DNA of 62,277 bases, the filler included. It is 4 parts of 4 records of this genome, joined end to end, with 100 filler letters (N's around TTAATTAATTAA, not from the genome) between each part and the next. Parts side by side here need not be neighbours in the genome. Positions count along the whole stretch, not along the records: positions 1 to 28,078 come from DRR378314_1959; 3 more parts are not named here. The stretch is one strand, 5' to 3'. Positions 532 through 53,206 of this stretch are shown piece after piece (within the stretch, counting starts at the first letter, position 1; each line of letters opens with the position of its first letter). The position numbers were made by a program, and so were the translations under genes. The notes below the pieces were generated by a model. It did not search any database and was not told where the DNA came from. It worked only from the letters and a program-made list of their open reading frames with translations.

Positions 532-3500
532 CTATGCAGACGGCTTGGCCTCGTCCCCGCCAGCTCCATCGGTCTTTGCCGCCGCTGCAGGAGCATCTCC
601 GTCGGCTCCGCCGCTCGTGGCATCATTCGCGACCTTGCGCAAGACAACGAAACCCTCCAGCACAGATGTCTGTGCCTCGTACTCGTCTGTGGCAAGCTCC
701 GCACGCTCGCCCACCTTGAGAAGCACGGGCGAGTCGTGCGTCTGAAACCCGGTGATGGTCTTTGGCCGGCCAGCCTGGCCGACTACGTCGACAGCTTGCC
801 CCACACGGAGTGGCACATTCACCGTCTTTCCCTCCTCATCCAGCGTCACAAGAAAGCGCGGGTTCATTGAGAGCACCAGGGAAAAGAGAAGATAATGATG
901 ATCGGCCAAAATCGTACCCGGCATATCGAGAGCAGCGTGCAGAACTACAAGCAATCCCGCAAGCCCCGAGCGCGACATCAGCAGTCCGTCTGACGAAAAC
1001 TGGCTCATCGACAAGAGGGACTTGCCAGCGTACAGCAATCCCTGCGCGGTGCGCACCACGAACAACGTGTTTGCCTCCCTCGAATAAAACGTCGCTAGCT
1101 GGCGAAGCATGCCGGCAATGCGCGCATTATTCGTGCCGGCTCCAATCAGCCCAAGCCCAAGAATGGCCGATCGCGCCACGTCGAGATCAGCATCGTGCGT
1201 GATCTTGCCCAGCGTGTCAGCCACCGCGTACGCAGGACTGGAAATGTTGAGAAGCGCCAGAGAAAGAGGGACGGCGCGCTTCACAGCGTCGTCGCCGTAC
1301 TGTGCGCACGTCAAAGCAAGCAAGAAGTAAACAGCCAGAGTCGACGCAACAAGATGCGGTGAGGAGACATAGCCCGATATTGCATGGAAATCAACTTTCC
1401 AACTACAAAGGGGCCGCATGCAACTAGGCACCGACCAAACTCAACCACACGAAGAGCTGACAGTGCAACGAACGAGAGTGCCAGCGCTTGCGTCGGCGTA
1501 TGCACTTAATACTATCTGAAGCAAGAAGCACCCCAGTCTAGCCCACCACAGCACCGCGGCATCCCAGGTGGCCCAGCGAGATATGCTGGCATCAAAAGTA
1601 ACAAAAAAGACAAAGACGCACACAACAAGGTCTAGCGATAGAATGCAGTCGCTCGGCCTTTCGCGTACCCAAAATATACGCTGGCGATAGCAAATATACG
1701 CGGGGGGGGGCAAATTCCGGGCAACGCATGCATCCCGACCCGCCGAAGGCAACGTACCTGCATCAAGTGGTCAAACGTGCGGAGTGACATCTCGCTGCCC
1801 AACTCTTCGCCCATCGCAACGAGCGACACTCCGAGAACTGCAAGCGATTGGTACGCTCGCTCGTATACCGACTTCTGCTCCTTACTCTGTGCACCGGACT
1901 CGCTGTTGCTGCTCGACGCATTCGCGCCTGAGCCCGATGCGCCGTTCGCGGCGCTGCTCGTGGCGGAATTCTGCGCGTTCGTCGCTGGCGGCGCTTCGCC
2001 TTCCTCGTTGCCCGCGCTCTCTTCGGAATTTTCGTCTTCGTGCTCGCCACAGATGTGAAGAAGCTTTTGCACCTTGAGAACGTTTCCCGTTGCGGCGTAT
2101 GCACACGTCTCGACGGTGAGCGCGCAGTACTTGGACATGGAAGAGCCCTCTCCGACAGCGGACAGTGCTTCAAGCGTCGCATCGCACTCCTCTTGCCGAC
2201 TCAGGAACAGGAGCCCAAGTCCGAGCGAGGCAAATCGCGCGATAGTATCGTTAACCTCGCTCTCCGGTCGCTCGATCAGGCCGCCAATGATAGCCTCAGC
2301 TACGCCTGAGTGACATGTACCCGTAAAGATCATTCCCAATGCCAGGGCACAGAAGGAAAACAGGTCGACAGGAGTCTCGCCATCCGCGAGAATAGGCATC
2401 AACAGCTCCAGAATGTCTTCGCGCTCCGACCCAGCGTACGCCAGACCGAGGCCGAGAATCGCTGACCGGCGGACAGTCGCGGCATCATCGTTTACATACT
2501 CGGAGAGCAGTGCAAACGCCGGATCGCAGTCGTTGAAGACACCAGAGTTGAGCATTCCGATCCCCAGTACAGCACCCGCTTTTATGTTCGTATCGGAAGA
2601 GTACAGGTGCTTGTCAAGGGCAGGCAGACCACCATCCACATCCCACAGCATTACCATTCCCAACGACGCGGTCGCGGTCAACATCGCATGGTCCTTGTTC
2701 TTGAAGATAAACGTACTTTCATTGGTCACCATTTTATCATGTCCATATCCGGCATTCACAAACGCATTTACGATGGACGCGGCCAAGTTTGCGCGCGCAG
2801 AGTTCATACTGCGGCGCGCCACGGAAGAAGCGTCGTCTTTGTACACGTCCTCGGGGTTCTTCGCCTCGTACACGTCGAGCTCTCGCGCCACACTCGCAAA
2901 ATGCTCCGAGAGACGCGTATTGTAGATAATTTCATTCAGATCGTCATCGGGAGTATCGAGATACATGTGCTGGCGGCCCAGCATGAAGCCAAGCTGCTTC
3001 TTCACAAGGGGATCGTCACATTCTTCGAAGATCTCCAGCACAAGAGCGCGGCTTCCGAGTCGAAGCGCAATGCGCAGCGCGTCTGGGAACTTTTTCAACG
3101 ACCGGTAAATTGCAAGTGCCACTCGAAGAATCTCTGAATCTTCTGGCTCAGGAACGTATTGAGCGCAGCTTACAAGGTACAGGCATATGCGCGAATAGTT
3201 GTTCTCATCCGCATAGCCAGCGATATCTTTTGTACGGTCCACCTCCATCAGCAAATCGCATCCCTCGTGCTCGGCATTGTGGGCAAAGTGATACGGAGCA
3301 ATGTCATCGACCAGAGCCATCAGCTTTGGTTGCAGAGCCTTGGCATCTTCGTCAGTGCGCTGAAACGCGATTCCAACTTCCATGGACAGTGTGCGTACAT
3401 AGCTATGACCCCACCAACCAGCGCCGCTTCCGGTACCTTCCAAACGATACCGCAGGCAGTCCAGGCTCCCTTCTTTCCCCATTGTCGTGCCAAGTACAGA

Positions 3501-5517
3501 TAGGATGTCGGCGAACAGGGCTCTATTCTCCGCTTCGATGCCCGCCGAAAAGAGCGCTTTCAGATTCTCATAGTGAGGACGGAGAAACTTGAGAGGCTTT
3601 GGTACGGATGTCATCGATGCTGTAGCAGACCGGATTTCCGTCTTGAGCTGCTCGAGAGCAGCTTCGCGAAGCTTGTCTTTGGTCTCCGTCAGAGTAGCGA
3701 CGAGTTCGTCCAGACGTTCCTTCAGCGCCTTGTCCTCGTCAGACTGCGTTCAAGTGGGCGCAACAGAGTGTGTCCAGCATACCGCATGAAAGCGTGCAGT
3801 TGGTCAACACAAACCGCGTACACATCTTTGCTTGCGCAGAGCAACTGCCGGTGCGGAACGCGCGGACAAAGTAGTCGATGACTGCAACCCTGCGAGCCCC
3901 GCCAGAGCGACTACACCGTTTTCTCGGCGACGACTGGCGCACGCTACAAAGTGCGGGCGCATGGCCCCCGCATGCGTACGCTAACGAGTATTGCGCATGG
4001 GGTACAGACGAGGGGAAATCTACAGCGCAAGAAAAGCTTCACCCAAAGAACACCCCTGCGCGCAACTCGCCGGGCTGCGCGCGCAAGAAATACTCCGCAT
4101 TGAACTGGACAGAACGTGCACGGAGTATTCGAGACGTACGAACTACGATCCACTCGCGGCGTTTCGCTAGTTTTCGTGCAAGAAAGGAGGGGCAGATTGG
4201 GATGAAACGAACGCAACGAACAAAACAAAAAAGCCGCTCCGAACAGAATCGGAGACGACGGTATGTGACAGTGTACAGCAGGTCAACAATGCGCTTCGAC
4301 AGAGCTGCAACTTGAAGCACAGAAAGTGGTAACATGCGCGCGTATTGCGACAAGCACGGCACAAAACGCTGCTACGCAGCCAAGCGGACACAAGCGAGAA
4401 GCTCCACAGATCGCCCTGACAAACAGAATCCACAGGCCCGGTGCGTGATCGCAATCTTAACCAAAACGCTATCAACGTTTGTATCTAAGCACCCAGAGAG
4501 AGTAATGAAATTGGGAAACATGGCAACTCCGCCGGTTCAAAAAGCACAGCAGAGTAACGCTGCAGTAGCGGGCTGGAACGGAACGGGCGCGTGGCGCTGA
4601 GGCAGCGTCGCAAGGCGTGAACCACCACCACTGCCCCGTCCACACGCCTGCAATACGATTACAAAATTCCGCCGTGCCTATCTTCATCAAATTGTGTTGT
4701 GGTACATTGAAAATTGTAACAACAAAAATTACTAAAGGCGGGGAGCACAAACAGCCGAGTCCTCTGGCCATGGGGGAACGGGATGCTGCGCGCTCCAGGA
4801 GCTCCACGCAAGTCTGCCCCGTTCTTAGGCGCGCAAACCAAACTACGGGAAATAGATTGCGCAATTGTATGCATCGGAAGCCGATTTACGTCCGAGCACA
4901 CATGATCGATATCAAAATCGCGCGCCTCTCTGCATTCCATAGGAAATATTCGTCCATCACTGTTGATCCGCTTGCACGGCCTCAGCGGACATAGGGCACG
5001 TGCACCCGAGGCGACGTGCGTCCGAGCGCGCTGCCGCGGTGCGCGCACTGACCGGCACCCCGTCGCACGCACCCGCGCGGAGACGCAAGCAACAGCGCGC
5101 CGCCGCTCCACTGCGTGCAAGCGCCCGGAGCGCGGGGCTCTTCGTCAATCAACATACGTGCGTGTCACGGGGTACAGGTAAATATGCAAGCCTCCAAATC
5201 TCCGCAACTACGTTCCGCAGCTGCCCGCGCACGTACGACAGCAACCGCAGACGAAGGCGTCGCGCGTATGTTCTGCGCTGCCAGAAGCAACGTGGCGCGC
5301 GCGCGTGAGCGTGCGCTGGATCGCGGCAGTGCGCAGCTCCGCGGTGCACGTAGCGAGAGAGGCGTACCATTTCCTGCACCTCTTCTTGCTTCTTCCCCTT
5401 CGCACCCGAGCCTTTCTTGGACTTATCCACGGTATCGAGCTGTTTCGTAGCATCGGACATCGCGGCGTCGCCGTCCGCGTCCGTATTGGTCTGTGAATTG
5501 GGCGTTTTCTCCACCAT
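532..5517 (-). CDS. RPN1: 26S proteasome regulatory subunit RPN1/PSMD2; 3 exons (5368-5517, 1758-3743, 532-1299)
   Basis: Conserved motifs MTSVPKPLKFLRPHY, NAEHEGCDLLME, GAGTNNARIA and VRVGQAVDVVGQAGRPKTITGFQTH-like. The GT-AG joins EEVQEM|SDEDKALKE and HLMQ|YGDDAVKRAVPL are in phase. Confidence 0.95.
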
Positions 5518-9200: not shown

Positions 9201-11135
9201 TGCAGTACCTGGGTGATGAGGACAGCGACCGTATGATCAAGCTCCTGTCTGTCCACGATCGAATGGAAAAGGTGTGTGAGGCAGTTCCGCGTCCCGCTGG
9301 TTTCTGCGCCGCCTTGCTCGCACCCGTCAGTGCTAGTCGGTCTCTCTGCTACCTTATAATGCAAAAGGTGCTTCTTGTTTCTTGGTTCACTTGAGCCACC
9401 TGCCTTCAACACCAGTGCGCACCGGGCGGAGTGGTTTATAGCAACAGCGTCGAAGCCAACCATTCATGTATCTCTGCGCACGAGTCGCTTGCCCTATCTC
9501 AGTTTGTAGGCGCTCTGTTGAATGGAAAGACTAAGATCATACAGGCAGTGAACTCATATGCAAGCGCCCATTATTCATGTATCTTTCTCGGTTTTCGCCA
9601 TTCTTTTCGTATGCTCTTCTGCGGGCGAATCCCTAGGCATTGCAAGACGCTTTGCGTGTGGAGCAGCACCCGCCGATAATCGATCTGAAAGAAGCGCTGG
9701 GTCCGCATCCAGAAGCGAGCTCGCGTACCGCCGACCCGCCCACGGACGCTGAGAGCTTGCGTCGCACAGTTCCGGCAAGCGAACAGGATGACGACGAAGA
9801 CGACTTCAATCCGCGTGCTCAGCCGCGGAAAGATCGCCCACCCTCGCAGACAGCGAGAAGCTCGGCGGTCGCTGCACCAGCTGGCGGTTCGGTTGGGCCG
9901 CTGCCGCCGCCGCCTGGGCATATATCGCACGGGCCTGGTGGAATGAGCGCGCTGCAAAGTCCCGCAGGCGCTGTGCCGGCCTCGGCGCAGCCGCACCCAC
10001 AGGGATCTGCTGACCTGATGAGTATGACCGCGGTGCCTGCGGTGGCAAACGTGCAACAGTTTTCGCAGGGGCTCTCGCCGAGTTCCTTGGCAAGCATGGG
10101 CTACCCGCAGCATAGTGCGGCGAGTCACACGATGCCTCCTGGCGTTCAAATGCACACAGCCGCGTACATGCAGCCTATGGGTGCCCAGACAATGCCGCCG
10201 TCCTATCCTGCAAGCGCCGGTGCAACTGGGCACCAGAGCTACGGTGGCCTTGCTGTTAGTGCAAACGCAGGGCAGATGAGCGGAAACTATCCCACGCACC
10301 CGCAGCAGCTAGGGCAGGCCATGGCTGCGCCAGCGTACAGCGCTCCTGCTGGTGCGATGGCCGGGAGAAGCGCGGCAGATGATGTGCTTGCGTTGGGGAA
10401 CATTGGTGTAGGCCCGACCCAAACGGCTGGCGCTTCCCTTTTGGACAGTACTACCGTGCATGGCGAAGCAACGATGCACGCGGAAGCGTTTGCGCCGCGA
10501 CAACACGCCACGCAGAGCGCCGGTGCCTCGTTGGGCGGCGGCGCCGTGCTACGTGGCGCTGGAGTAGGTGCGTGGGCTCGTGCGATGGGTCAGTGCTCTT
10601 CCGATCAGAGATGGCAGGTTATATTCTTTTTGGTTGCATCATCAACTGCTCTGAAGAGAATGAAGTGTTTGTCAAGAGAAAGGCCATCAGAACAGAGAAA
10701 AGAAGCGCGGCCCTGGCAAACGCACGAGACAATCTCGTCCCTTTTTGCAGAGCCCAGGCTGGTGCGCCTGTGCAAGCTGCTGCCTTTCGTTCGCACGAGA
10801 TGTACATGCGCTCACCGCATTCGTGATGCGACGCCGCCCGCCGTTGCTTTGTGCGTTTGTATATTTTCGCAGGCTCAAGGAACAAAGACTCGTACGTTTC
10901 AAAAGCTGTTTGTTGTGCCCCCATACGCGAACTTCGCGGCGATGTTGCCCTGCGTTCGATGGCATCGTCAGTTGCAGCTTCGGCGACTGGCGTGCGCCTT
11001 TCCACGCATAGCACGAGTGAGACCACCATCCTCAACATTTTTTTTTTCTCTCTCTCTCCTTTCTATGCTATATTTTACACATACAGATTACGTGATCTCT
11101 CTGAAGCGATGAAGCGAGGAGCATCACTGAACTAA
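6213..11135 (+). CDS. TOM1/GGA-like VHS-GAT endosomal adaptor with long low-complexity tail; 10 exons (6213-6322, 7019-7094, 7496-7567, 7742-7852, 8225-8317, 8456-8833, 9137-9271, 9637-10567, 10873-10891, 11087-11135)
   Basis: The spliced protein gives a VHS domain (LVEHATDDLLLREDY...VIRAIRRRLGSAHSKSVLLALGLLDMCLLNC...LKRWA...GIGFP), GAT-like helices (ELSDRVKKLQ...KLLSVHDRMEKAL) and a Pro/Ala/Gln-rich tail. All joins are GT-AG and in phase. Confidence 0.8.
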
Positions 11136-11577
11136 ACAAACGAGCAACACGTAGTGGCAGGGCAGGGGACCACGCGCGAGCTCGCCGCCAACGGAGAGAA
11201 TCAAGGCGCTGCGCCTGCCTCTTGCTCGCTCGCTAGGGTTCTCATCTAGAGAATCTCGAATACAAGAACGTTCTCGAACCTGCGATTACCGAGACCTTGG
11301 CCTCCGCTTGCCTCGCGGGACCAGCGCAGCAGGCTACCGCGTTGTCTTTCGGCTCCGTGCGAACATCCGCTCGTGCCTATATTCCATCATTTAAGCAGCG
11401 TTACAATTCGCGGCACCTTTGTGCTCTTTTACGTGATAAACGACGTACGAAAACCGGTGACGCAATCGCTCTTCCCGTTCCTTGTTTCCCTGTCGTTCAT
11501 AGGCAGCTGCGAGTACCCGTTCCCAGAAGCGTGAGCTGTGTTGATCCGTTCGTTCTTCTCTGCTGCAACTGCTTCCG

Positions 11578-14500
11578 ATGGCGCATACCCCGCAAGACGC
11601 TAAACCCCAAAGCTTACCTGCAGCGCAGGTTCAGGTTGGGATGAATATCATTCTCTCTGGAGAACCGGTGCAGGTTATCTCGGTACGTGGTTGTCTGGCA
11701 ACGGAACAGCAGGCAGTGGTCTTCTCGGTGGGCGCAAAACGTGTTTCGCTCAGCTGGAGGTGGAGCCTGCGCGCCAGGAAGCTGCTTTCTCAATGCGAGC
11801 GCCGCAAGTCTGTGCGCCCGAATCGCTCGCGACATTGCAGTGATTTGCCTACTTTCTTTCATTCTATAAGCCGGTTATATGCACATCGACTCGATGATTT
11901 GATCGCCTCGGCATCGGTGAGAATGTGTAGCTTTGCCCGAGAGCGCGCGGCGAATCCTGGTTCACGTACTGCGTGCACGCGCGTGTGCGCTTCGACGCTT
12001 GCGCGGGCTCCTCACCAGCCCGCAGCCGCGAAACTCCAACGCGCTTGCGGAGCCGCCGTCTCGCCGTGCGCATCTTTTGTTTTTGTTTTAAAAAATGAAA
12101 AGGGCGCTCGTTAGCCATTTCGAAGCCATGATGTTCGGACCAATCCATAATGCTAATGCGCAACTTTCTAATGTAGCAGTGAACGGGCGGGATCGGCTTT
12201 GCCAACTCTTGTGCTGTGAATGCAAGCTTCTCAGGACGCAGCTTGCCACTTCACTGCTGTTCTCGAAGAGTCTGCGTGCCTTTGCACCTTGCCTGTTTAA
12301 CCACCAGTTGCTCGGCTTCTCCCACACCGTTGCTTTGGCTGCAACAGACCCAAATTGAGCAGATTGCGCTCACTGGTCGAAATGTACACGGTGACGAAAT
12401 TCGTGCTGTTCTGGTCGGCGATGAAATGGTGCCGATCACGGACACCATCGCTGTCGTACGTTTGTATCTTTCATCGCGAGGAAACACAGCAGCTGCTGCG
12501 GGTTGTACCGTTGGTTGTGTAGCGTCACGTGCCGTTCGAACAAGCCCAGCTGCGGCTGCACGTGTGCACTGGTACTCTCTCGCAGCCTTTTCCCGCATCG
12601 ACGACGAAGCTAATGCTCTGTTCGTGTTGTTTGCGTGCATATTTCCCTGACGATGGATAGGCTCCTGAAATCAAGCCATGTACGTTGCAGTCGCGTGGCG
12701 TGAGCGCTACTGCTGCCTTTGTCGTTGCCTGTTCCGAAACCAAGCAGGCTGCTTGCGCGCAGACCGCTTCAAACGAGAGGCCTAAACACGCGCGTCATGC
12801 CGTGCTCTATCGCTCGTCGCCGCCCGCGAAACTCCTCGCGTGCGATGTGTATAATATACTTGCAAGTACAGACACTCTTTACAGCGCAAATGCGCTCTGC
12901 TGTGTTCTAGCTCTTCTTGTGCTGAACCCGTGCCGTTCTCTGTGCGCGTGCTACCGTTGGCCTCTGGCAGGCAAGACTTTCCTCGTCGTGACCGGCCCAA
13001 GCGCCGCTGGTAAAACGACGATGATTCGACGGTTTCTGCGTGACTACCCTTCCAAGTTTGCCTTTTGGTACGATACCCGGCATGGAAGAGGACTACACCA
13101 GTGCGCCAGTTCATGGTTGTTTCTCTCTACGTCCCAAAGAATTGTGTGCCATGTCAACACAGCTCCGGTTTCCCTCCCGTTTCGCGCACTCTCGCAAGAT
13201 CTGGGCGGAGAAGGGGCAACGTTGTGCCGCTGCGCTACAGGTTGCCCTCGCAGAACCAATTCGTAGCAGCATTTTGCCGGCGCACTGGCCAGAGTATGGG
13301 CCGTCCTCCGGGCCCTTTTTCTCTGGTCCGCGATCAAATCAAATAAGATCATTCGGCACTTGCGTTTTTCTTCGGCTGTGTCTCTATGCGCGGGCTGGTG
13401 CAGCGTCTCGCATACAACGCGCGAGAGACGAAGCCAGGAGAAGAACGGCGCAGACTACCACTTTGTCTCAGAGGAAATGTTCCAGAAAATGGTTCAGTCT
13501 GGTCGGTTTGTGGAATGGACGAAAATCGGGGACGTTTACTACGGGACATCGTACGTTTTCGCCGAGCTGCTCCCGGGATCAACCGTGTTTGCGGGCGGTT
13601 TCGTCGCACGGCCTGCTGATGTATCACTGACCCGCCAGCGCCACGGTGCGCACGCCTCCCTTTCCCAGCTCCCGGGGCCCTTTTTTGTGTTAAGCAGACG
13701 CAGCCTCTGTCACATTCCATTCTCTACATGTACTGTTGACAGCACTGCATAAGTACTAGTGCAGCAACTGCCATGATTGTTCTGCGCCGTGTACGCTGCA
13801 GCGTATAGCACATTCGCAGCTGTGCAAGCACACTCGCTGCTCGTGTGGATAAAAAGACGGTGCAACGGCAGTCGTGCGCAGCATATACTTACCCATGTAG
13901 AACCCGACTGATTACATGCGCTGCAGGTTTGACGCCGTGCGGAAAGTGCTACGAGATGGCAGAATATGCGTTATGGACGTCGACGTGCGCGGCTGCAAGA
14001 ACCTGATGCGCGATCTTCTCGACGAGGCACTGGACATCGAGCCTGTTTTCATTTATCTGACACCACCTAATGTACACGAGCTCGAAAGAAGGTGCGAAAT
14101 AAGATAGTAGCACATATGATCGTTTCGCGTGCAGCTGTATATACTGGTCATCGCCCTCTGCCTCTTCTCAAGAAGAAATGCGAGCGAGGCTTGGGCGTCA
14201 CCCTCGCTTTACGTTGTTCGATTGGGGTAATGGCAGCGACAAGCGATGCGCCGATTGCATCGGATGCTGGTGGCTGGTTTCGTAGCCATCTGCAAAAAGA
14301 GGCAGACGACATCTATCCCCAATGCTCCTTTATTCAGGAATGCACGAAAGTCGTTTGCTCGCAGGAAGGGGTGGCTCCATCTGTTTACGAAGCCCCGCTC
14401 GTTGCAGGTGTCCACCACGCTGAGTTTCTTGATGGCGGCACCGATCGCTGCTCTTCGCGCAGACTTGCATTGACGGGCTCGGAAACTCCTGTCAGTATTC

Positions 14501-16046
14501 TTCATAAGCTTGAGCGTGTAAAAGAGGAACTGGCGGAAATCGACACGAACCTCTTCAATATGGTCGTCAATGACGACCAGGATCGCTGCTACGATGAGCT
14601 GGTGCGGATGCTGAAGGAAGAGCTCGGAGATACGCCTCCGCTGTGCAAGTGGTACGTGCGCGAGTGCAACGGCGACTGTACTCTACGGGCTAGCGCCACG
14701 CGTGAAAAACTCTTCTCATTGGCAATATTTGGGTGGATGATGGCGACGTTGCGAAAGCCGGGAAAAAAGTGAAACATTTTTCCTCTTCCCTAATAATAGC
14801 ACCGCTATGTCGGTCTCGACCTACGGTCATGATGCATACATTTGTGCAGCGCAAGTGCATTTTTGGCGAGTGAGGACAAAATCATCACGGGGACGGTTGG
14901 GTTCAGTCAGCGCGCTTCAGGTATGCTGAGTATCCGCTTGCCTCAAAGGATCGCCGAACGATGTTGTCCACATGCTTGTAGTTCTTGTAACATGTACACC
15001 GATGAAGGGGGAATCCCGGAAGGCTTTCTCTGCGCATCTGCGCCGGGCTCATTCACGCACTCGCTACGATATCGTTGCACTCTGCCCGCTCGTACCCGGA
15101 CTCTGCCGCGGCAGCGCCTTCCTCTCTTCCTGACGGATAATACTGCATTGATGTGTGCTCCATTTCATCCAGGAGGGCGCATTATGTGCCGCATTGATCT
15201 GGGCGGGATGCGAGAGCTCCATGGCTCATTCATCGTCGCGCTCAAGACTGCGCTACCCGTTCACATCGCCGCGCAAGAACGGCGAGCGGGAAGTTTTGTG
15301 GTGCGTTGGTTCCCACGCACAATGTTGCTGAGCGCGTGGCAGCGCCACCGATGCTGGCGCACGAACACCTGTCGCAAAAGAAGATGAAAACGCGAGTACG
15401 AGCCTTGACATGATGGGTTTCGGACGCCAATGTGTGCTCGTGGGTATGCAGAGCGACCAAGAACTTGCGAAGCGGAACTCGTATTTCAGAAGATTTATAC
15501 ATCGCCACGGCAAAACGCACAGCAATGCAGATGGTACGTGTGGAGGGAGCGTGCGCCCTCTCTTCCGGAGCTGTCGTTCCGGTTGCATGCAGCTACCAGA
15601 CAGCTATCTTGAGAGGCGCGGTAGGAGTCGGAAACTTTGCCACTTAGTTCGGTGCGTGCAAAGTTAGAGCGTTCTCTGTCCTGCTCCTTTCTGAAAGGAC
15701 TGCATCGTCGGCGTGTGATGCCTTGAGGTGCGCGGCGTTTCGCAGGCGCTTCAGCGCTCTCGGTGCCTGGTTCACGCCCGAGCCTGATGTTTGTTTTTTT
15801 TTCGCTGTTTGCGCTCTCGGACCTACTGCTGGCACTTGATCTACAGATGGTCTTGCGATCATTGCAGAATTTGAGCACAAGACGAATATGAGCGATGTTT
15901 TGGCAGAAGAAGTGCTTGTTGATGGCATTGCCAAAGTCGATCACCTCGTGGGAAAGCGCGTAGTACTGATGCGCGAGTACGTCCATACGCAGGGGCAGTC
16001 GGTGGTACCCGGGGCCCTCGCTGAGGGCATTTTGGAGTGGATTTGA
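11578..16046 (+). CDS. Guanylate kinase fused to an N-terminal eIF5A/EF-P-N-like domain and a C-terminal degenerate Cu/Zn-SOD-like domain; 11 exons (11578-11682, 12348-12455, 12661-12679, 12971-13067, 13404-13550, 13927-14091, 14463-14651, 14850-14920, 15173-15300, 15452-15533, 15847-16046), about 436 aa
   Basis: The GK core is clear: P-loop GPSAAGKTT, VSHTTR...E.NG.DYHFVS, FVEW...YYGTS, ICVMDVDVRG, VVNDD. The flanking exons join in phase through canonical GT-AG introns, and the exon total of 1311 nt is divisible by 3. The identities of the flanking domains are by-eye inference. Confidence 0.75.
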
Positions 16047-16838
16047 AGCAACGATTGTCACCCCGGACGCACAATCATCAGATGCAGCTGTTCGTGCGCG
16101 ATCAGGTGCACTTTTTGCTGCGAAAGTGTTTCTCGATGTGGCATCCGGTGCTCGCCGATCGGTGTGGGGCTCCCGCGCACGGCGACAGTATTGTCCGCTT
16201 GCGTCCATGAAGTTCGGGCGTTGTGGTGTCGCCAATTGATCAACGTTGGCCTCTGAAAGGATTCTGGTGCTGTACCAAAACGAAAATATACAACCGTTGC
16301 TTCAGGTTCCTTATCATAACGGCGCCGCCACGAATCTGTGTTGCGCTCGCACTGGGTCAGTCTTGCTGCGCGCTTGAGCTTCTCAGCACCCGAAGCGGCT
16401 GCGTGCAGCGCCTCCAGGAAGTTGTTCTTCGACCCTATCCATTTAACCTTGAGCACATGGGCAGCGCCCAGCCGCCACACGCTCCGCACGCCACGCCACC
16501 CACAGACTCGGCACGCGCGGATCGTGGTCCGCTGGCGGAAGGTGCGATCGTCCGCGCTACACCCTTGTGGTGCGTATTTGCTTCGCTACGAGAGAACCGG
16601 AGGCAAGCACCAAGAGTATTTGACTGGTTGTGCGCGCTACGTGCGCGCTACGTGCGCGACAGACGGCGCCCATAGCAGGACAGGTCCATTGTGCTCAGCG
16701 CGATCTCGCTCCCGAAGCGTCGTCGCAGGTAGCCCCTTGCGGCCAACCTCTGACCGGAGTTCGTACCGCGGTCAATCTGAACCTGTGCGTGTTTTCTCCC
16801 CCTTTTCCACGCATGCAGATCTTTTGCTGATAGTAGGC

Positions 16839-19704
16839 ATGAATGCGTGGCGCCGACTGGGTGGCATCACTACCGCGAACCGTCGGCTCGCTTCGTCGGT
16901 GCCGTCAGCCGCAGGCGCTGCAGCAGGCGCGCGCAGACGCCGTGTGCGCGCGTGGCCGCTCGCGCTCGCTCTATCAGGCGGTGTGGCCACGTACGTGTGG
17001 AGCGATGAGGGCGCGCAGCGATCGATAGTATTCTGGAGTCGCATGTTTCCTATTTATGCGCATTATCGTGCTACAGAGTTTCTTGTCAGCCGCTGGAGCC
17101 CGGAGGAGCAAGACGAGGCATACAGCAAGCTGCACCGCCGGTACAGTCATACTGTGCGTGACCTGGTGCTGCAGCTGAAAGGATTCTACACAAAGCTCGC
17201 GCAAGTGTGCTCTACGCGGGATGAGTTTATCCCCAAAGAGTATATGGAGTGGTGCAAGGACATGCAAGATCAAGTGCCTCCTGAAATGACTCCTGCGCAG
17301 ACCAGGGCGCTCGTCGAACAGGAGCTCGGTCGGCCGCTGAGCGATGTGTTTGTCGAGTGGGAAGACGTGCCGCTGGGCGCTGCCTCGATTGGTCAGGTAC
17401 GCTGCATGTTGTGCAGATGGTTGCGGCAGAGCGCATTCCAATGCCCTCGGACTTACCCAGGATAATTCTCGCATGCGCCTGAGTAGCTTCACTCGCGCGC
17501 AAAAACGGCGCTCCATTAAGCTTGGGTGTCTGCGCGGAGGGACTCGCGCTCCCGCGCGCAAGTGCGGCGGTCGACCCTGTACACAGCCATACGGCAGTCG
17601 CTAAGGGAATTCGGGGCGTGTTCGCAGCGCGGATGCAATTTTTGCCGAAAGCGATAGCACAGAAAATACGTAGGATCAGGTGTGTGCCACTGCTGTGATC
17701 GATTTCGCAGCGGAGACGTTTTCGCATTTCTTGATACAAATCGCCGCGTATTCGCTCGCTTCTTGCGCGTGCATGCGCTGCAGGTTCACCGCGCGCGGCT
17801 TCGCGACGGAAGACGTGTTGTCGTCAAAGTAATGTACCCGGACATTGAGCGCCGATTCCGCGCGGATATCAAGACAGTACTTGATTTCTGTGAGCTCGCC
17901 CAGCCGCAGCACGTGCCTGCCTTTCGGGAAATCGAGCGCCAATTCTTAACCGAGTTTGACTATCAAGCAGAAGCGAAGAACTTGGCGGAAGTGAGGGAGA
18001 ATCTTCGCAGTACTTGGTCGCACGCTGTTGTTGTTCCGGAACCGATGCATAGTCTTTGCACACAAAGCGTGCTCGTGATGGAGTACCTGGAGGGCGAGAA
18101 ACTTGTCGACGGTGTGAGATCGCAATTTGCCCGTCTCGCTGCGTTGCAAGGGCGAACGCTTGAAGATCTTGAGCGGGAGCAGAAGGAAAAATTGGAGAAA
18201 GGGATCCTACGACTGGAGACACCGGAAGAGGCCGCGAGGAGGACGAGGCGCACTGCGCTCCTTCTACGCGTGCTTGACACTGCAGCGAATGCAGCTATAT
18301 TGCTCTATAATGTTACACTCGGTCTCTTGTTTGGCGCAAAGGCGTACAGACGCTCTGAGATTCCGCTAGACTTGGGGAGTATCATGAGGACTCTGCTCGA
18401 GGTACACGCACACGAGATCTTTGTCGACGGCGTCTTCAACGGCGACCCGCATCCAGGGAATGTATTGCTGTTACCGGACGGGCGTCTCGGCTTAATCGAC
18501 TATGGACAGGTGAGTGCATAGTGCAGCGCTGCACTCCGTGAAACAATGTCACCTGTGAACAAATCGCGCGATCATCACAACGGTGAACGGCAAGTTCAAG
18601 TGAAAACCTCACTTGTGTTGTATGGATAACCTCTCGTGCGTTATCCTTTGAAGGCTAAACAAATCATTTGCTGCCGTAAGAACGCGCCGAAGTAGTTTCA
18701 TTACGCGGTGCTTGCACAGGAGAAGCGCGCTGATTGCCCACCAGGCAAGTTTGCCTTCTTGTGAGAGAAACAGGTGCACTTCAGAATGAACTGTCAGCAA
18801 AAACAAAAGTGTGGCAAGTTGCAACCGTGCACACATTCCATACGTGTGTAGTTGCCAGGCTGAGCTTTCGTGCTTCTGTTGCTGCCTTTTTGTCGTCGCA
18901 CAGGTAAAACGACTCAGTACCGAGCATCGCCGGAAATATGCGAAGCTGATCCTTGCACTCGAAGGGGGGAATGAGCAGGAGGTTTGCCGCCTCATGCGGA
19001 AGGAACTCGGGTTCCGCACGAAGCGCGATCGGGATGATATTTTGTTCATGTATGCAACATTTTGGAATGACTACGACAATGATCGCCTACGCGGAGGACG
19101 CAATGTTCAGCACTTTATGGAGTGGCTCGAAGAAGAGGATCCAATCGCGGTAAGCAATAGCGCCTTTCTGTTGCTGCAGTAGAGTCCGCCAAAAGTGCCA
19201 AATTTCTCCGTTCCAGGTTGCCCTCTTGTCACTTATTGCTTCGGAAAATCGAATGCACGAGCTCTACATCTTCCTGCTCGCGAATCGCCTTCAGTTGGCG
19301 CATGAATGGAGAGACGCTTGGAGTACGAGCTCCCCCTTCCTCGCCGGGGGCCTTTTCCGGCGAGCCATTCCGTAGACTAGCGTGCGTTCTATCCTTGGCA
19401 AAGATAGGTTTCCATTTGATTGTTGTGTAGTGTAGGACTGTATATTTATTTCTCAGTCGGCAGTTTCATTTTTTTCGCCGGAAGTTTGCAGCACAACGAA
19501 ATACCCGGTGGGTGCTCACGACTTGCGTTGTGCTTCTGTTTCTCTCGCTTGATTGTGCAGGATATGCCGGACGACTATGTGCTGGCGTCGCGCGTTTCGA
19601 TCTTGCTTCGCGGAGTGGGAAACGCGTTTGGCCTTCAAATACGAACGACCGATTATTGGGCACCTTACGCGCGTAGATTTCTGCTAGAGCATGGTGATGA
19701 GTGA
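16839..19704 (+). CDS. ABC1/ADCK/UbiB-family atypical kinase, probably mitochondrial; 4 exons (16839-17396, 17784-18509, 18904-19149, 19561-19704)
   Basis: Motifs LKGFYTKLAQ, PLGAASIGQ|VHRA, VVVKV.YP, EFDY..EA.N, LVMEYL.G and FNGDPHPGN...LIDYGQ; Arg/Ala-rich N-terminal presequence. Confidence 0.92.
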
Positions 19705-28078: not shown

Positions 28079-28178
28079 NNNNNNNNNNNNNNNNNNNNNN
28101 NNNNNNNNNNNNNNNNNNNNNNTTAATTAATTAANNNNNNNNNNNNNNNNNNNNNNNNNNNNNNNNNNNNNNNNNNNN
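28079..28178. other. Artificial contig spacer N44-TTAATTAATTAA-N44
   Basis: Identical 100-nt block occurs three times; its core has stop codons in all six frames. Confidence 0.99.
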
Positions 28179-38076: not shown

Positions 38077-38176
38077 NNNNNNNNNNNNNNNNNNNNNNNN
38101 NNNNNNNNNNNNNNNNNNNNTTAATTAATTAANNNNNNNNNNNNNNNNNNNNNNNNNNNNNNNNNNNNNNNNNNNN
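38077..38176. other. Artificial contig spacer (eukaryote / alphaproteobacterium boundary)
   Basis: N44-TTAATTAATTAA-N44. Confidence 0.99.
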
Positions 38177-38605
38177 GTGATACCACCAGTCGATACGCTC
38201 GCCCGGTTTGCGATAGTCGGGCGTCCAGCCGAAATCCGGTGGGTAGATATCGGTCGTTAGCCGGTCCTCAAAGCCGTGCAGCTGGTCGGGGCCGACGAAA
38301 TGCATCTTGCCGGAGAGGCAGGTGTAATAGCCGGCGCGGCGCAGGTGGTGGGCGTATGTCGGGATCGAGGAGGCGAATTCGGCGGCATTGTCATAGACGC
38401 CGGTGGCGGAGGGCAGCTGTCCGGACATGAAGCTGGCCCGTCCCGGTGCGCAGAGGGGGCTGGCGGTATAGCAATTTTTGAACCGGGTGGAGCGTTCGGC
38501 CAGCGCCTTCATGTTCGGCGCGTGCAGCCAGTCTGCCGGACCATCCGGGAACAGCGTTCCATTCAGCTGGTCGACCATGAAAATCAGGATATTCGGGGAT
38601 GTCAT
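38177..38605 (-). CDS. betC: Choline-sulfatase, 5' part (truncated by contig end)
   Basis: PNILIFMVDQLNG.LFPDGPADWLHAP, formylglycine motif CAPGR, LSGKMHFVGPDQLHGFE and ERIDWWYH. Confidence 0.93.
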
Positions 38606-38763
38606 CAGGGACGTCTTTCTGGTGGCTCAATTGTGTGCCCGCCTAACAGGGGAAACTGATCGAAGTGATTGGCGTCTGCCTCCAAGCTGCTTCAACCTGT
38701 CCCGCGCACCGTTGGTGTTTCTGTTTCAGCGGCATCGTGGATCATGTCGCACACTATTCAGAC

Positions 38764-38781
38764 ATTGACTGATCAGTCAAT
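38764..38781. promoter_or_regulatory. Perfect 18-bp palindrome ATTGACTGATCAGTCAAT; putative BetI operator overlapping a TTGACT -35 element for betC
   Basis: Perfect inverted repeat about 160 bp upstream of betC that resembles TetR-family BetI sites. Confidence 0.7.
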
Positions 38782-38964
38782 CAAATCTCCTTCCGTCCAA
38801 TTTGGCGCACCCCACACACTGCAGAGCGGTCAAGGATTTGTCCGGCGGGAGGGCTTCGTCATAAACAGGGAGTAAATTCGACATACGAGGTCAGAGGTTC
38901 GCACCAGCATCATTGATTTCACGTTATTTTTACTGACAACCTGTAGTTGACAGGTGGGGCGTGA

Positions 38965-41043
38965 ATGCTACGGTTTATTCAGATCGGGAGGGGTCGAATG
39001 CTCTGCGGCAGGAAGCGGCAAAGGACGGCGTGGAGAACAGTCTCACGATGGATCGTTATGGTCTGCGCGAACCCGCTTCTCGCGCTCATTGGAGTGTCTG
39101 CATTTACTGCGACCGCGCTCGCGGACAGCAGTCGCGCCATTCTCAAGAAATCAGGGTTAAGTGGTCCTGACGCCATGGGCGCACATACAGCCCCGTCAGG
39201 AACAACAATCACCGAAGCATTTTACGCACAGCAATCGCCCGCTGTGGTCGCACTCTATCTGATATGTGCCGCCGCAATTCTCGCCTTGGCTCTCGCAGAG
39301 ACCTTTCGACGTCTCCGGCGCGCCCCGGTACAGGCACCGCAGTCTCCTGTGGCGACCTCCACCATAGCAACTTTCCGTCCCGGTACTGACAGCGTTGCTA
39401 TGCTAGATGCGGAAGCGCGCGTGATTGATGCCAATCCGCGTTTCCAGTCCGACACTGGATTGCCACTGGCCCAGATTCGGGGCCGCCCCATCTGGGCTCT
39501 CCATACCAAAGGATTTGGCAGAATATTCTGGGATAGCGCACTGGAAGAGGCACGACGGAGCGGTTCGTGGAACGGTGAGGCGCGTACGCTCGGTCATGGG
39601 CATTTGCCCGAAACCGAGAACATGTCTGTTCGCGCGCATAGTGGTACCGGCAGCGCCGATATGACTTTTGAGTTTCGATCACGCCGGCCCTTCAAGCCCG
39701 GTCCGAAGCATGCGTCTTCAATGGAAACCAAATTGCGTGATGCGCTCACCGGGCTCCCAACTCGAAGAGCAATGAAGTCACATGTCGAATTTGCAATTGT
39801 CCGCGCGAAGGCAACGCATAGTGAATTGGCGCTGATAATCATCGACTTGGACCGCTTCCGCGACATCAACTCCATTTTTGGAGACGACATCGGCGACCGC
39901 GTTCTGGAACGGCTTGCGAATGCTCTGCGTTTCGTAATGCGCCCGGGTGTCACCGTTGGTCGTATTGGTGGCGACGAGTTCGTTGTGCTGGTCGAACACG
40001 TCTCCAACGCCGAAGCCGTCCTGAGTATCGCCAACGAGATCAGCGCGGCGTTGGGAGATGAAGTTGTAGTCGACGGTCTGACTTGCAGGTTAAGCGCCAG
40101 CATGGGAATCGCTCAATACCCCAAGGATGGCGAAGGACAGCGTGGCCTGATGCAGGTGGCTGGCGTGTCGCTTTGCCACGCTAAAGCGAAGGGTCGTGGT
40201 CAGATTTGCTTCTATTCCGAGCATATGGAGCAACGTTCCAGCGACAACCTGCAGATGGAAATCGACCTGCGGCGGGCAATTTCGGACAGGGAATTGCTGA
40301 TGTTCTACCAGCCTCAGGTGGACCTGCGCACCGAGAGGTGTATCGGCGCAGAGGCCTTGTTGCGATGGCAGCACCCGAAGAAAGGGCTTCTGTTGCCCGG
40401 CGGGTTTGTCCCGCTTGCCCTCGATACTGGCTTAACCACAGCAATCGATAAATTTGTGATGCAGGAAGTCTGCGCTCAGATCGGGCAATGGCAGGATGCA
40501 GGCTTCGCACCGGGCAAGATTTCGGTCAACATGTCCGCAACGGCACTGCTGATCCCGGATTTTGCCAACGAACTAAAAACCACCGCGGACACCCACGGCC
40601 TGGACCTGAACCAGCTGGAAATCGAAGTATTGGAGAGCACGCTGTTTCCCCGCATGCGCAGCTCCCTGAATACAATCGACGACCTTCGCAACTTGGGGGT
40701 GACGCTTGCCATTGACGATTTTGGGACTGGGTACTCCTCGCTCGCTATGCTGAAGGATCTGCCGATTGATCGCATCAAACTCGACCGGCGCTTCATCAAA
40801 TCCCTACCCCATGACACCAAAGATGATCGCATCGTGGCAGCGATCGTCGCAATGGGGCGCAGTCTCGGGATTAGCGTGATCGCAGAAGGGGTCGAAACAC
40901 GTGAACAGCGGGATAGGCTGATCTCACTCGGCTGCACCGAGGCACAGGGGTTCCTCTTCAGTCGCCCGATCAGAGCGGATGACTTTTCCAGCGGCTGGCT
41001 GAGATGCAATCGCCCACAGGCCTTTGTCGGCTCCTCGACCTGA
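38965..41043 (+). CDS. Membrane-anchored PAS-GGDEF-EAL c-di-GMP enzyme (start uncertain)
   Basis: Hydrophobic segments, PAS-like region, D.LTGLP, DLDRFRDIN, intact GGDEF, EALLRW, DDFGTGYSS and AEGVET. Confidence 0.92.
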   Translation: MLRFIQIGRGRMLCGRKRQRTAWRTVSRWIVMVCANPLLALIGVSAFTATALADSSRAILKKSGLSGPDAMGAHTAPSGTTITEAFYAQQSPAVVALYLICAAAILALALAETFRRLRRAPVQAPQSPVATSTIATFRPGTDSVAMLDAEARVIDANPRFQSDTGLPLAQIRGRPIWALHTKGFGRIFWDSALEEARRSGSWNGEARTLGHGHLPETENMSVRAHSGTGSADMTFEFRSRRPFKPGPKHASSMETKLRDALTGLPTRRAMKSHVEFAIVRAKATHSELALIIIDLDRFRDINSIFGDDIGDRVLERLANALRFVMRPGVTVGRIGGDEFVVLVEHVSNAEAVLSIANEISAALGDEVVVDGLTCRLSASMGIAQYPKDGEGQRGLMQVAGVSLCHAKAKGRGQICFYSEHMEQRSSDNLQMEIDLRRAISDRELLMFYQPQVDLRTERCIGAEALLRWQHPKKGLLLPGGFVPLALDTGLTTAIDKFVMQEVCAQIGQWQDAGFAPGKISVNMSATALLIPDFANELKTTADTHGLDLNQLEIEVLESTLFPRMRSSLNTIDDLRNLGVTLAIDDFGTGYSSLAMLKDLPIDRIKLDRRFIKSLPHDTKDDRIVAAIVAMGRSLGISVIAEGVETREQRDRLISLGCTEAQGFLFSRPIRADDFSSGWLRCNRPQAFVGSST

Positions 41044-41256
41044 GCGCATCACCTGACAACTTCCAAAGTGAAAACCACGCAAAATCACTTCACCTCTTCC
41101 GTTGATAGTTACAAAAGCACCTAATAGCCCTGCTCCGGGGGCAATAGGATGGCTCAGCTTCATGCGTGCTTAAAAAACGGGCGCGACATCGAAGTCTCAT
41201 ACGGTAAGGTTGCCGTTGAGGAGCCGTAAATGGTCCCGGTCAAAGGGAGGAAACGC

Positions 41257-42303: not shown

Positions 42304-42317
42304 TCGAGACATCCATT

Positions 42318-42352
42318 GACGGGGTCCGCCTGCCTGTGCAGCGGGCCCCGTC
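42318..42352 (+). terminator. GC-rich stem-loop between dctP and dctQ (attenuator or mRNA stabiliser)
   Basis: GACGGGGTCCGC...GCGGGCCCCGTC inverted repeat with no U-tract. Confidence 0.55.
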
Positions 42353-42393
42353 GCATGCAATGGTGCTGTATAAAGCCAAAGGTGGGCAAAGGC

Positions 42394-42975
42394 ATGCATA
42401 ACTACATGATGGGGCTGGCGCGGATCATGGCGATGATCGGCGGCGCGGTCCTGACACTTCTCATTCTTCTGACCTGTATCTCGATCGCCGGGCGCCTGCT
42501 GAATGGCGTGTTTCACAGCGACGGGATCGAAGCCATGATGCCCCAATTCGCGGGCTGGATGACGGCGCATGTCGGCCCCGTGAACGGGGATTTCGAACTG
42601 GTCGAAGCGGGCGTTGCTTTCGCAATCTTCTCGTTCATTCCGCTGTGCCAGATTACTGCAGGTCATGCGGCGGTTGATGTCTTTGCCAATAGCTTTCCGC
42701 CCAAGGCAAACCGGATACTGCGCATGGTGACCGAGATAATCTTCGCCCTTGTGCTGGTTCTGATTGCTTGGCGACTGGGTGCAGGCACGGTCAGCAAATT
42801 CGAAAATGGCGAGACGTCGTTCCTGTTGGAATTCCCCACCTGGTGGGCCTATGGCACGAGCCTTGTGGCCGCTGTAGTGGCCGCAATCGTCGGAATATAC
42901 ATGGCCGCTGTTCGCAGCATCGAAGCCCTTACTGGCCGGATCCTCGTCCAGGACGGCGTGGAGACACAATCATGA
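42394..42975 (+). CDS. dctQ: TRAP transporter small permease
   Basis: About four TM segments, GDFELVE and GHAAVDVF; ATGA overlap with dctM. Confidence 0.9.
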   Translation: MHNYMMGLARIMAMIGGAVLTLLILLTCISIAGRLLNGVFHSDGIEAMMPQFAGWMTAHVGPVNGDFELVEAGVAFAIFSFIPLCQITAGHAAVDVFANSFPPKANRILRMVTEIIFALVLVLIAWRLGAGTVSKFENGETSFLLEFPTWWAYGTSLVAAVVAAIVGIYMAAVRSIEALTGRILVQDGVETQS

Positions 42976-44477: not shown

Positions 44478-44495
44478 CGGTGCACACATCCAACA

Positions 44496-44533
44496 AAGAA
44501 ACGCGCGCCCCATCAGGGTCGCGCGTTTTTCTT
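44496..44533. terminator. Bidirectional intrinsic terminator between dctM and the LacI gene
   Basis: aagaaacgcgcgccc-atca-gggtcgcgcgtttttctt hairpin with A and T tails, between convergent genes. Confidence 0.75.
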
Positions 44534-44550
44534 CATCCAAACGATTTAAA

Positions 44551-53199: not shown

Positions 53200-53206
53200 C
53201 ATTAAC

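What the first reader, a model, noticed from the sequence alone, without database searches (positions are those of the whole stretch)
11578..16046. Hidden three-domain fusion: eIF5A/EF-P-like domain + guanylate kinase + degenerate Cu/Zn-SOD-like barrel
Seen: 11 exons with canonical GT-AG ends join in one frame (1311 nt) from MAHTPQ... to ...ALAEGILEWI*. The ORF track shows only fragments of this. The middle is an unambiguous guanylate kinase. Established: eukaryotic GKs are usually stand-alone, MAGUK-fused or Kelch-fused. Inference: I do not know this architecture. It could be a repurposed GK scaffold or a nucleotide/redox-sensing protein. The P-loop (GPSAAGKTT) departs from the usual GPSGxGK, and the lid reads LALTGSET rather than L..RGTE, so catalysis may be altered.
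Basis: partly seen in the sequence, partly recalled or inferred. Interest (0 to 1): 0.82.

Follow-up and report, generated by a model that had tools for sequence, protein, structure and literature searches.

The report
Guanylate kinase with two orphan extensions
A marine eukaryote makes one spliced messenger RNA for a 436-residue protein whose middle is a guanylate kinase with an unusual ATP-side active site, flanked by two extra parts that resemble nothing found in the searches run here.

Summary
The 11-exon, 1311-nt model is real. It reproduces exactly. One 1785-nt contig of public run X1 spans 11349-16291 with the introns removed at the predicted GT..AG sites, and its length equals 229 nt 5'UTR + 1311 + 245 nt 3'UTR.

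Residues about 79-265 are a complete guanylate kinase domain. Against 72 other guanylate kinases it keeps 13 of 16 invariant residues. The three changed ones all lie on the ATP side: P-loop Gly to Ala, and two LID Arg to Thr and Lys.

The flanks use the organism's codon usage. Their proposed identities are weak:
- **eIF5A/EF-P-like:** only a 24-residue, 7.6-bit local match to the first hairpin.
- **SOD-like:** no support from the tests I could run.

The last C-terminal exon has no relative among 1.84 billion representative proteins. The spliced protein could not be sent to Pfam or AlphaFold, so both flank folds remain open.

Verdict: a real guanylate-kinase variant with lineage-specific extensions and probably weakened or regulated catalysis. 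Moderately interesting.

The parts
11349..11577 (+). 5' UTR as far as the X1 contig reaches; no ATG; in-frame TGA at 11542-11544
11578..11682 (+). exon 1, residues 1-35 (N-terminal extension; holds most of the stretch with the weak EF-P-hairpin resemblance, residues 15-38)
   Evidence: (joint 11681/12347)
12348..12455 (+). exon 2, residues 36-71 (N-terminal extension)
   Evidence: (bin 12608-12808 = 2.31)
12971..13067 (+). exon 4, guanylate kinase P-loop GPSAAGKTT (Pfam PF00625 positions 4-31)
   Evidence: (joint 13066/13403)
13404..13550 (+). exon 5, GMP-binding part of guanylate kinase (PF00625 positions 34-81, E 3.1e-14)
13927..14091 (+). exon 6, guanylate kinase core (PF00625 positions 84-130, E 2e-5)
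14463..14651 (+). exon 7, LID and C-terminal helix of guanylate kinase (TIGR03263 positions 134-179 of 180; aligns to yeast GK 135-179); Thr218 and Lys229 replace the two LID arginines
14850..14920 (+). exon 8, start of the C-terminal extension (residues 277-300)
   Evidence: joints 14650/14849 and 14917/15170
15173..15300 (+). exon 9, C-terminal extension (residues 301-343)
15452..15533 (+). exon 10, C-terminal extension, holds the His-rich stretch HRHGKTH
15847..16046 (+). exon 11, end of the C-terminal extension and the TGA stop; no relatives found
16047..16291 (+). 3' UTR as far as the X1 contig reaches

Best explanation
This is a genuine single gene of a marine eukaryote. It makes one spliced mRNA for a 436-residue, three-part protein.

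The core, residues about 79-265, is a eukaryote-type guanylate kinase fold. Its GMP pocket is fully conserved, and the P-loop Lys and Thr are kept, so it most likely still binds GMP and ATP (inferred). Three residues that never vary in other guanylate kinases are changed: the P-loop Gly, and both LID arginines that close over the ATP phosphates. I therefore think phosphoryl transfer is slow, or depends on something else. On this reading the protein is a specialised paralogue, a weak or regulated GMP kinase or a guanine-nucleotide-binding module, rather than the housekeeping enzyme (inferred).

The 77-residue N-terminal part is probably a small beta-barrel. The 160-residue C-terminal part is lineage-specific coding sequence of unknown fold. 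They would supply regulation, partner binding or localisation (inferred). Neither can be filed as eIF5A/EF-P or as Cu/Zn SOD.
For: - **Transcript:** one 1785-nt contig joins all the exons. It shows joints at 8 of 10 introns.
- **Coding flanks:** in-frame codon-usage log-odds are 0.243 bits per codon for the N part, 0.312 for the kinase and 0.287 for the C part. The other frames are negative and introns score 0.12 or less. The model was trained on 962 codons of two other genes in the window.
- **Kinase profile:** exon-wise matches are collinear. PF00625 positions 4-31, 34-81 and 84-130, then TIGR03263 positions 134-179 of 180.
- **Solved structures:** the best PDB matches are guanylate kinases.
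- **Active site:** 13 of 16 columns invariant in 72 comparators are kept, including every GMP-side one (T114, R116, R119, Y128, E147, Y156). The three departures are A89, T218 and K229.
- **Yeast alignment:** Thr stands at yeast Arg135 and Lys at yeast Arg146.
- **No relatives:** none found for exon 11.
Against: - No activity was measured. Reduced catalysis is inferred from residue conservation alone.
- The P-loop Lys and Thr and all GMP-site residues are intact, which is what an active enzyme would show.
- Arg180 stands where 69 of 72 comparators have Gln. It, or residues from the flanks, could replace the missing LID charges.
- No genome is held, so I could not check whether a second, canonical guanylate kinase exists. 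If this is the only one, it must be active.
- The 72 comparators are mostly prokaryotic metagenome sequences, picked by likeness to exon 5.
- The role of the two LID arginines in the transition state is recalled, not taken from a call.
- Run X1 is labelled RNA only as a guess.
Confidence: 0.45

Rival explanations
1. It is the organism's ordinary, fully active housekeeping GMP kinase. It has merely gained lineage-specific N- and C-terminal extensions, and the LID and P-loop changes are tolerated or compensated.
For: All GMP-binding invariants, the P-loop Lys and Thr, and Asp178 are kept. The transcript contig has a word depth of 24.4, though contig depth is a poor measure of expression. Arg180 is an unusual extra positive residue in the core motif.
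Against: Both LID arginines and the P-loop Gly are invariant in 72 of 72 comparators and are changed here. The same Arg positions are present in yeast guanylate kinase.
Confidence: 0.38
2. One reading: an eIF5A/EF-P-type N-domain, a guanylate kinase, and a degenerate Cu/Zn-SOD-type Greek-key barrel. All three would be true, if remote, homologues of those families.
For: The N part matches the first hairpin of a local EF-P N-domain profile at 7.6 bits, 0 of 2000 shuffles reach this, and hhalign gives P 5.7e-4. The C part is about the length of an SOD domain. The SodC profile's best local alignment falls on its first strands, at 0.8 bits only. Hydrophobic periodicity suggests some strand-like stretches in both flanks (a crude measure).
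Against: No Pfam, NCBIfam or PDB match of exons 1, 2 or 8-11 to these families. The joined C part against SodC profiles scores -1.5 and 0.8 bits; the 0.8-bit score is reached by 162 of 2000 shuffles, and hhalign probability is 0.1. The EF-P match ends before the conserved Lys loop, and there is no room for the OB domains. Exon 11 folded alone came out helical with pLDDT 70, but a fragment folded without an alignment is unreliable.
Confidence: 0.12
3. An SH3-GK module related to the MAGUK scaffold proteins. The N-terminal barrel would be an SH3-like domain packed on a guanylate-kinase-derived binding domain.
For: A small, probably beta-rich domain sits directly before a guanylate kinase fold. 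MAGUK GK domains score almost as well as enzymes against exon 5 (MPP5 4.3e-8). The LID is the part that diverged most in MAGUK GK domains (PMC3335814).
Against: No SH3 family matched exons 1 or 2. [quoted passage not shown] The hinge position next to the GMP-binding Ser is His, as in enzymes, not Pro (the mapping to yeast S35 is recalled). No PDZ or L27 domains are present.
Confidence: 0.04
4. The joined transcript is an artefact: a chimeric contig, or an intron-less DNA copy from another organism.
For: X1 is kept only as contigs and its RNA label is a guess.
Against: Eight joints fall on GT..AG sites to within the 1-3 letters that the joint table leaves ambiguous, and all keep one reading frame. 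There are no mismatches in the listed pieces, and the contig length fits to the base. Introns 1, 5 and 10 are bridged by the contig and have no depth of their own.
Confidence: 0.02

Closest known systems
Stand-alone guanylate kinase (GUK1/Gmk; PF00625, TIGR03263)
   Same: The whole kinase fold is covered collinearly. The GMP site and the P-loop Lys and Thr are conserved. The best solved matches are guanylate kinases, including 6mfu, 2qor and yeast 1ex6.
   Different: It carries 77 extra residues in front and 160 behind. The invariant P-loop Gly and both LID arginines are replaced. Identity to the 72 comparators is at most 39%.
MAGUK guanylate-kinase-like domain (Dlg/PSD-95, MPP5, CASK)
   Same: It is a guanylate kinase fold inside a multi-part protein, with its main divergence on the LID/ATP side and the GMP-pocket residues kept (PMC3335814).
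   Different: The P-loop is kept here. The hinge residue is His, not Pro. No SH3, PDZ or L27 domains were detected. MAGUKs are limited primarily to metazoans (PMC3335814).
Other multi-domain guanylate kinase proteins: LRGUK (PDB 9ijj) and the 270-residue AAA_33 + GK protein P0002
   Same: A guanylate kinase domain is joined to other domains.
   Different: The partner domains differ (leucine-rich repeats; a second P-loop kinase domain). Neither partner resembles the flanks here.
EF-P / eIF5A N-terminal KOW-like barrel (PF08207)
   Same: Residues 15-38 align to profile positions 4-27 of 65 of a local EF-P N-domain profile, at 7.6 bits.
   Different: The conserved Lys loop and the following OB domains are missing. 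No curated profile or solved structure matched.
Cu/Zn superoxide dismutase and SOD-like domains (PF00080)
   Same: Only the length, about 160 residues, and a His-rich stretch.
   Different: No profile match. The metal ligands invariant in 28 SodC sequences cannot be placed.

Membership tests
Guanylate kinase (PF00625 / TIGR03263) | Profile match over the whole domain | tested here: met
   Exon-wise and collinear. PF00625 positions 4-31 (E 0.0025), 34-81 (E 3.1e-14, 53.5 bits, cut-off 25.2) and 84-130 (E 2e-5); TIGR03263 positions 134-179 of 180 (E 0.0067). The joined protein could not be scanned as one piece.
Guanylate kinase (PF00625 / TIGR03263) | GMP-binding residues (Ser, Thr-Thr-Arg, second Arg, Tyr, Glu, Tyr-Gly-Thr) | tested here: met
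   S112, T114, R116, R119, Y128, E147, Y156, G157 and T158 are identical to the residues that are invariant or nearly invariant in 72 comparators.
Guanylate kinase (PF00625 / TIGR03263) | P-loop PSGxGK[ST] | tested here: inconclusive
   Lys92 and Thr93 are kept. Ala89 stands where 72 of 72 comparators have Gly. The effect on ATP binding is unknown.
Guanylate kinase (PF00625 / TIGR03263) | Two LID arginines | tested here: not met
   Thr218 and Lys229 stand where 72 of 72 comparators have Arg. They align to yeast Arg135 and Arg146.
Guanylate kinase (PF00625 / TIGR03263) | GMP + ATP to GDP + ADP activity | not testable with these tools
   Needs an enzyme assay.
MAGUK GK domain | Loss of nucleotide binding (degenerate P-loop) and a hinge Ser-to-Pro type change | tested here: not met
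   The P-loop Lys and Thr are present, and the hinge position is His. The features are as described in PMC3335814. The residue mapping to yeast S35 is recalled.
MAGUK GK domain | SH3 domain directly before the GK domain | tested here: inconclusive
   No SH3 family matched exon 1 or exon 2 alone. The joined 77 residues could not be scanned or folded.
EF-P / eIF5A | Curated N-domain profile match | tested here: not met
   No family matched exons 1 or 2 at E up to 10. No EF-P or eIF5A appeared among PDB matches.
EF-P / eIF5A | Full KOW-like barrel including the conserved Lys loop | tested here: not met
   The local profile match covers only positions 4-27 of 65 and ends before the KPGKG stretch seen in the EF-P rows.
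EF-P / eIF5A | OB-fold domain(s) after the N-domain | tested here: not met
   The kinase P-loop starts at residue 86, so there is no room.
Cu/Zn superoxide dismutase (PF00080) | Profile match | tested here: not met
   PF00080 hit none of exons 8-11. The whole joined model scored -1.5 bits against the enterobacterial SodC profile. The joined C part scored 0.8 bits against the diverse SodC profile, reached by 162 of 2000 shuffles, and hhalign probability was 0.1. Only bacterial SodC profiles could be built.
Cu/Zn superoxide dismutase (PF00080) | Copper and zinc ligands and the disulfide pair | tested here: inconclusive
These are invariant in 28 SodC sequences. With no significant alignment they cannot be mapped.
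Cu/Zn superoxide dismutase (PF00080) | Eight-stranded Greek-key barrel | not testable with these tools
Exon 11 alone gave a helical, low-confidence model.

The most novel reading that the evidence does not exclude
Outside animals, and independently of the MAGUK proteins, a guanylate kinase enzyme has been turned into a nucleotide-sensing or ligand-binding module. It keeps its GMP pocket, has lost its LID arginines, and has been joined to two domains that have no detectable relatives. That would be a second natural case of this enzyme-to-binding-domain transition.
Probability: 0.2. Interest if true: 0.6.

Novelty: new variant of a known kind. Interest (0 to 1): 0.4.

Why it matters
Guanylate kinase is the textbook case of an enzyme fold that evolution turned into a protein-binding domain, in animal MAGUK scaffolds. 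Suppose a transcript-supported protist protein really has lost efficient catalysis while keeping the GMP pocket and changing the invariant ATP-side residues. It would then be an independent natural experiment on that transition, and a handle on what the two unknown flanking domains do.

If it turns out to be fully active, it shows that the two 'invariant' LID arginines are dispensable in some context. That is of narrower, enzymological interest.

In either case, lineage-specific extensions on housekeeping enzymes are common in protists. The finding is solid but not startling.

Tried and rejected
- **RNA runs:** no RNA holder listed. The one run found, X1, is labelled RNA only as a guess.
- **No genome held**. 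So there was no search for a second guanylate kinase and no lineage assignment.
- **Earlier findings of this scan:** nothing on this place or genome, nothing like exon 11, and one unrelated fusion by words.
- **Exon 11 searches:**
  - Word-index search among longer proteins: 240 candidates, none scored.
  - HMMER over 1.84 billion representatives: one hit, P0001, E 3.3e-4 in 5 stretches. It is a bacterial tandem-repeat surface protein and I judge it spurious.
  - Metagenome contigs: 598 pattern matches, 0 relatives.
  - PDB: only designer pentatricopeptide repeats. Their score is a sum of about 5-bit matches to identical repeats, so spurious.
  - Protein atlas: no named family and a low recognition value.
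- **Other exons:**
  - Exon 9 against PDB: nothing.
  - Exon 2 in the atlas: nothing.
  - Exons 1 and 2 against PDB: one chance hit and none.
- **Exon 5 searches:** among longer proteins, only P0002 and P0003. In metagenomes, 305 relatives, of which the best 80 loci are ordinary kinases at 50-60% identity.
- **First EF-P profile**: it contained wrong-frame ORFs and gave -1.3 bits. I discarded it and rebuilt it from 30 of 53 rows.
- **SOD line:** the profile of 120 enterobacterial SodC proteins and the profile of 32 SodC domain stretches from 30 proteobacterial loci plus one E. coli SodC gave no signal. An attempt to reach eukaryote-like viral SODs through alignment A1 failed, because A1 has no stretch conserved enough to search with.
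- **AlphaFold on exon 11 alone** gave a long helix, pLDDT 70.4 and pTM 0.36, with the five models ranging from 34 to 70. I do not trust a fragment folded without an alignment.
- **Hydrophobic periodicity** is too crude to decide the fold.
- **Papers:** three full-text searches found no description of this architecture. This is weak evidence that none is in print.
- **Lineage:** the neighbouring Rpn1/PSMD2 gene scores 630 bits to mammalian, 541 to chain 8amz and 444 to yeast subunits. That does not place the organism.
- **Not used:** Complex prediction, the second fold job and fold search. I saw no query that would have answered an open question.
Full report
**Observation.** The region 11578-16046 holds no long open frame; the stop-to-stop list shows only pieces. 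The exons are 11578-11682, 12348-12455, 12661-12679, 12971-13067, 13404-13550, 13927-14091, 14463-14651, 14850-14920, 15173-15300, 15452-15533 and 15847-16046. All ten introns are GT..AG. Seven donors read GTACG, and nine acceptors are CAG. My first automated search found nothing only because I had set too narrow an acceptor range for exon 10.

**Transcript evidence.** One public run, X1, holds 35% of the sampled words of the region. Its record calls it RNA only as a guess.

When X1 was laid on 11000-17000, a single contig of 1785 nt ran from 11349 to 16291. It had no mismatches in the listed pieces and joints at eight of the ten predicted introns, each with GT..AG ends. The two introns around the 19-nt microexon are not listed as joints, but three things fit:
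- The stretch of the contig between the exon 2 and exon 5 pieces has the length expected of exons 3 plus 4.
- The total is 229 + 1311 + 245 = 1785.
- The depth bin 12608-12808 reads 2.31, that is 19 of 201 positions at depth 24.4.

Introns 1, 5 and 10 are bridged by the contig and carry no depth of their own. So the run behaves as spliced RNA rather than genomic DNA. A separate 343-nt contig at depth 4.3 covers part of intron 6 (14072-14414). It could be unspliced RNA or carried-over DNA.

This contig does not show either. The 5'UTR has no ATG. An in-frame TGA lies 33 nt upstream of the start. The 436-codon frame is the only ORF of 50 codons or more in the mRNA. The neighbouring contigs end at 11276 and resume near 16829, so the transcript is not merged with its neighbours.

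**Are the flanks coding?** I built a codon-usage log-odds table from 962 codons of two other conserved genes in the window. In the model frame it gives 0.243 bits per codon for residues 1-77, 0.312 for the kinase and 0.287 for residues 277-436. The other two frames are negative, and the ten introns score between -0.43 and 0.12. The flanks therefore look like ordinary coding sequence of this organism.

**The core.** Exon by exon, Pfam PF00625 is matched at positions 4-31, 34-81 (E 3.1e-14) and 84-130. TIGR03263 is matched at 134-179 of 180. The best solved matches of exons 5 and 7 are guanylate kinases, including yeast 1ex6.

I aligned the joined core with 72 other guanylate kinases: 70 open frames from the 80 best metagenome loci found with exon 5, plus P0002 and P0003. 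Sixteen columns are invariant in all 72. The window protein keeps 13 of them, including every GMP-side residue. It departs at three:
- Ala89 in the P-loop, where all others have Gly.
- Thr218 in the LID, where all others have Arg.
- Lys229 in the LID, where all others have Arg.

The alignment to yeast guanylate kinase puts Thr at Arg135 and Lys at Arg146. Arg180 replaces a Gln found in 69 of 72. The P-loop Lys and Thr remain.

[quoted passage not shown] That the two arginines stabilise the transferred phosphate is my recollection of the nucleoside-monophosphate kinase literature, not a result of a call.

**The N-terminal 77 residues.** No Pfam, NCBIfam or PDB match was found for exons 1 or 2, and the atlas gave nothing.

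So I built a local EF-P N-domain profile from 30 proteobacterial genomes and scored the joined 77 residues in the script box. A first profile was contaminated with wrong-frame ORFs and was discarded. The cleaned one gave 7.6 bits, which 0 of 2000 composition-matched shuffles reached (their maximum was 6.1), and an hhalign P-value of 5.7e-4.

The match covers only residues 15-38 against profile positions 4-27 of 65. That is the first hairpin, and it ends before the conserved Lys loop. In a library-wide search this score would not be significant. I read it as a hint of a small KOW/SH3-like barrel, not as membership.

**The C-terminal 160 residues.** PF00080 matched none of exons 8-11. I built two local SodC profiles:
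- One from 120 enterobacterial proteins. It scored the whole joined model at -1.5 bits.
- One from 32 SodC domain stretches out of the 30 loci returned by a scan of 301 proteobacterial genomes, plus one E. coli SodC. It scored the joined C part at 0.8 bits.

The 0.8-bit value is reached by 162 of 2000 shuffles, and hhalign gives probability 0.1. I could not build a profile of eukaryote-type SOD or CCS, and an attempt to reach viral ones failed.

Exon 11, the longest piece at 65 residues, has no relative anywhere I could look:
- None among longer proteins in the word index.
- None among 1.84 billion representatives, apart from one spurious repeat protein.
- None in metagenome contigs.
- Nothing credible in the PDB or the atlas.

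Folded alone it came out as a long helix at pLDDT 70, which I do not trust. The fold of this part is open. The SOD reading is unsupported but not excluded.

**What it most likely is.** Shown:
- One spliced mRNA.
- A complete guanylate kinase fold with an intact GMP site.
- Three changed ATP-side invariants.
- Flanks that are coding and have no detectable relatives.

Inferred: the protein binds GMP and probably ATP but transfers phosphate poorly or conditionally, and the flanks provide regulation or partners. I put this at 0.45. I put 0.38 on a fully active enzyme with tolerated changes. The two cannot be separated without an assay, or without knowing whether the genome holds a second, canonical guanylate kinase. 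No genome is held for this window.

**Comparison and novelty.** It works like a guanylate kinase and meets the fold and GMP-site criteria. It fails the LID-arginine criterion.

It is not a MAGUK-type domain. The P-loop is kept, the hinge residue is His, and no SH3 or PDZ was detected. Other multi-domain guanylate kinases seen here have unrelated partners: LRGUK, and the AAA_33 + GK protein P0002.

Three full-text paper searches turned up no description of this architecture. That is weak evidence of absence, and supplements were not consulted.

I rate it a new variant of a known kind, of moderate interest.

**Context.** The window is four contigs joined by spacers of N at 28079-28178, 38077-38176 and 45745-45844. 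Two are eukaryotic, with GC about 0.56. One comes from a Roseobacter-group bacterium. One is a low-GC, probably Flavobacteriia-like bacterium, judged by GC 0.28-0.31 and the look of its ORFs only. The finding lies wholly inside the first contig.

Noticed in passing
window 28079-28178, 38077-38176, 45745-45844: There are three spacers, each two runs of 44 N around 12 bases. The window is therefore four contigs laid end to end, not one continuous piece of a chromosome.
   Followed up: partly
window 38177-45744: This is a bacterial contig with GC about 0.58, carrying a GGDEF/EAL protein, a TRAP transporter and a LacI-type regulator. Its DctP-like protein (41230-42300) is 99% identical to that of Tritonibacter scottomollicae, so a Roseobacter-group bacterium was co-assembled with the eukaryote.
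   Followed up: partly
window 45845-62277: This is a low-GC (0.28-0.31) bacterial contig with dense long ORFs (UvrA, an M1-type peptidase, a 2-oxoacid dehydrogenase E1 and others). It looks Flavobacteriia-like. It is a second bacterial companion or contaminant, and no search was run to identify it.
   Followed up: no
window 14072-14414: A separate 343-nt X1 contig at depth 4.3 lies inside intron 6 of the gene. It may be unspliced pre-mRNA, intron retention or DNA carry-over.
   Followed up: no
window 12661-12679: A 19-nt microexon lies between introns of 205 and 291 nt and links the N-terminal extension to the kinase P-loop exon.
   Followed up: yes
window 532-3749 (-): A proteasome Rpn1/PSMD2 gene with a 705-codon exon. 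It scores 630 bits to mammalian PSMD2, 541 to chain 8amz and 444 to yeast Rpn1. This does not place the organism.
   Followed up: partly
window 9637-11276 (+): The upstream region holds a long frame rich in Ala, Pro, Gly and Gln. A 2186-nt X1 contig ends at 11276, only 72 nt before the start of the kinase transcript, so intergenic spacing is very tight.
   Followed up: no
window 16320-18521 (+): The downstream gene has ABC1/ADCK (UbiB-type) kinase-like sequence in at least two exons. X1 depth resumes from the bin 16628-16828, and more fully from about 16829. The family name is my reading of the translation and was not tested.
   Followed up: no
window 15495-16301 (-): A 268-codon stop-to-stop frame lies on the opposite strand over exons 10-11 and the 3'UTR. 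The GT..AG polarity of the joints puts the transcript on the + strand, so this frame is probably chance.
   Followed up: partly
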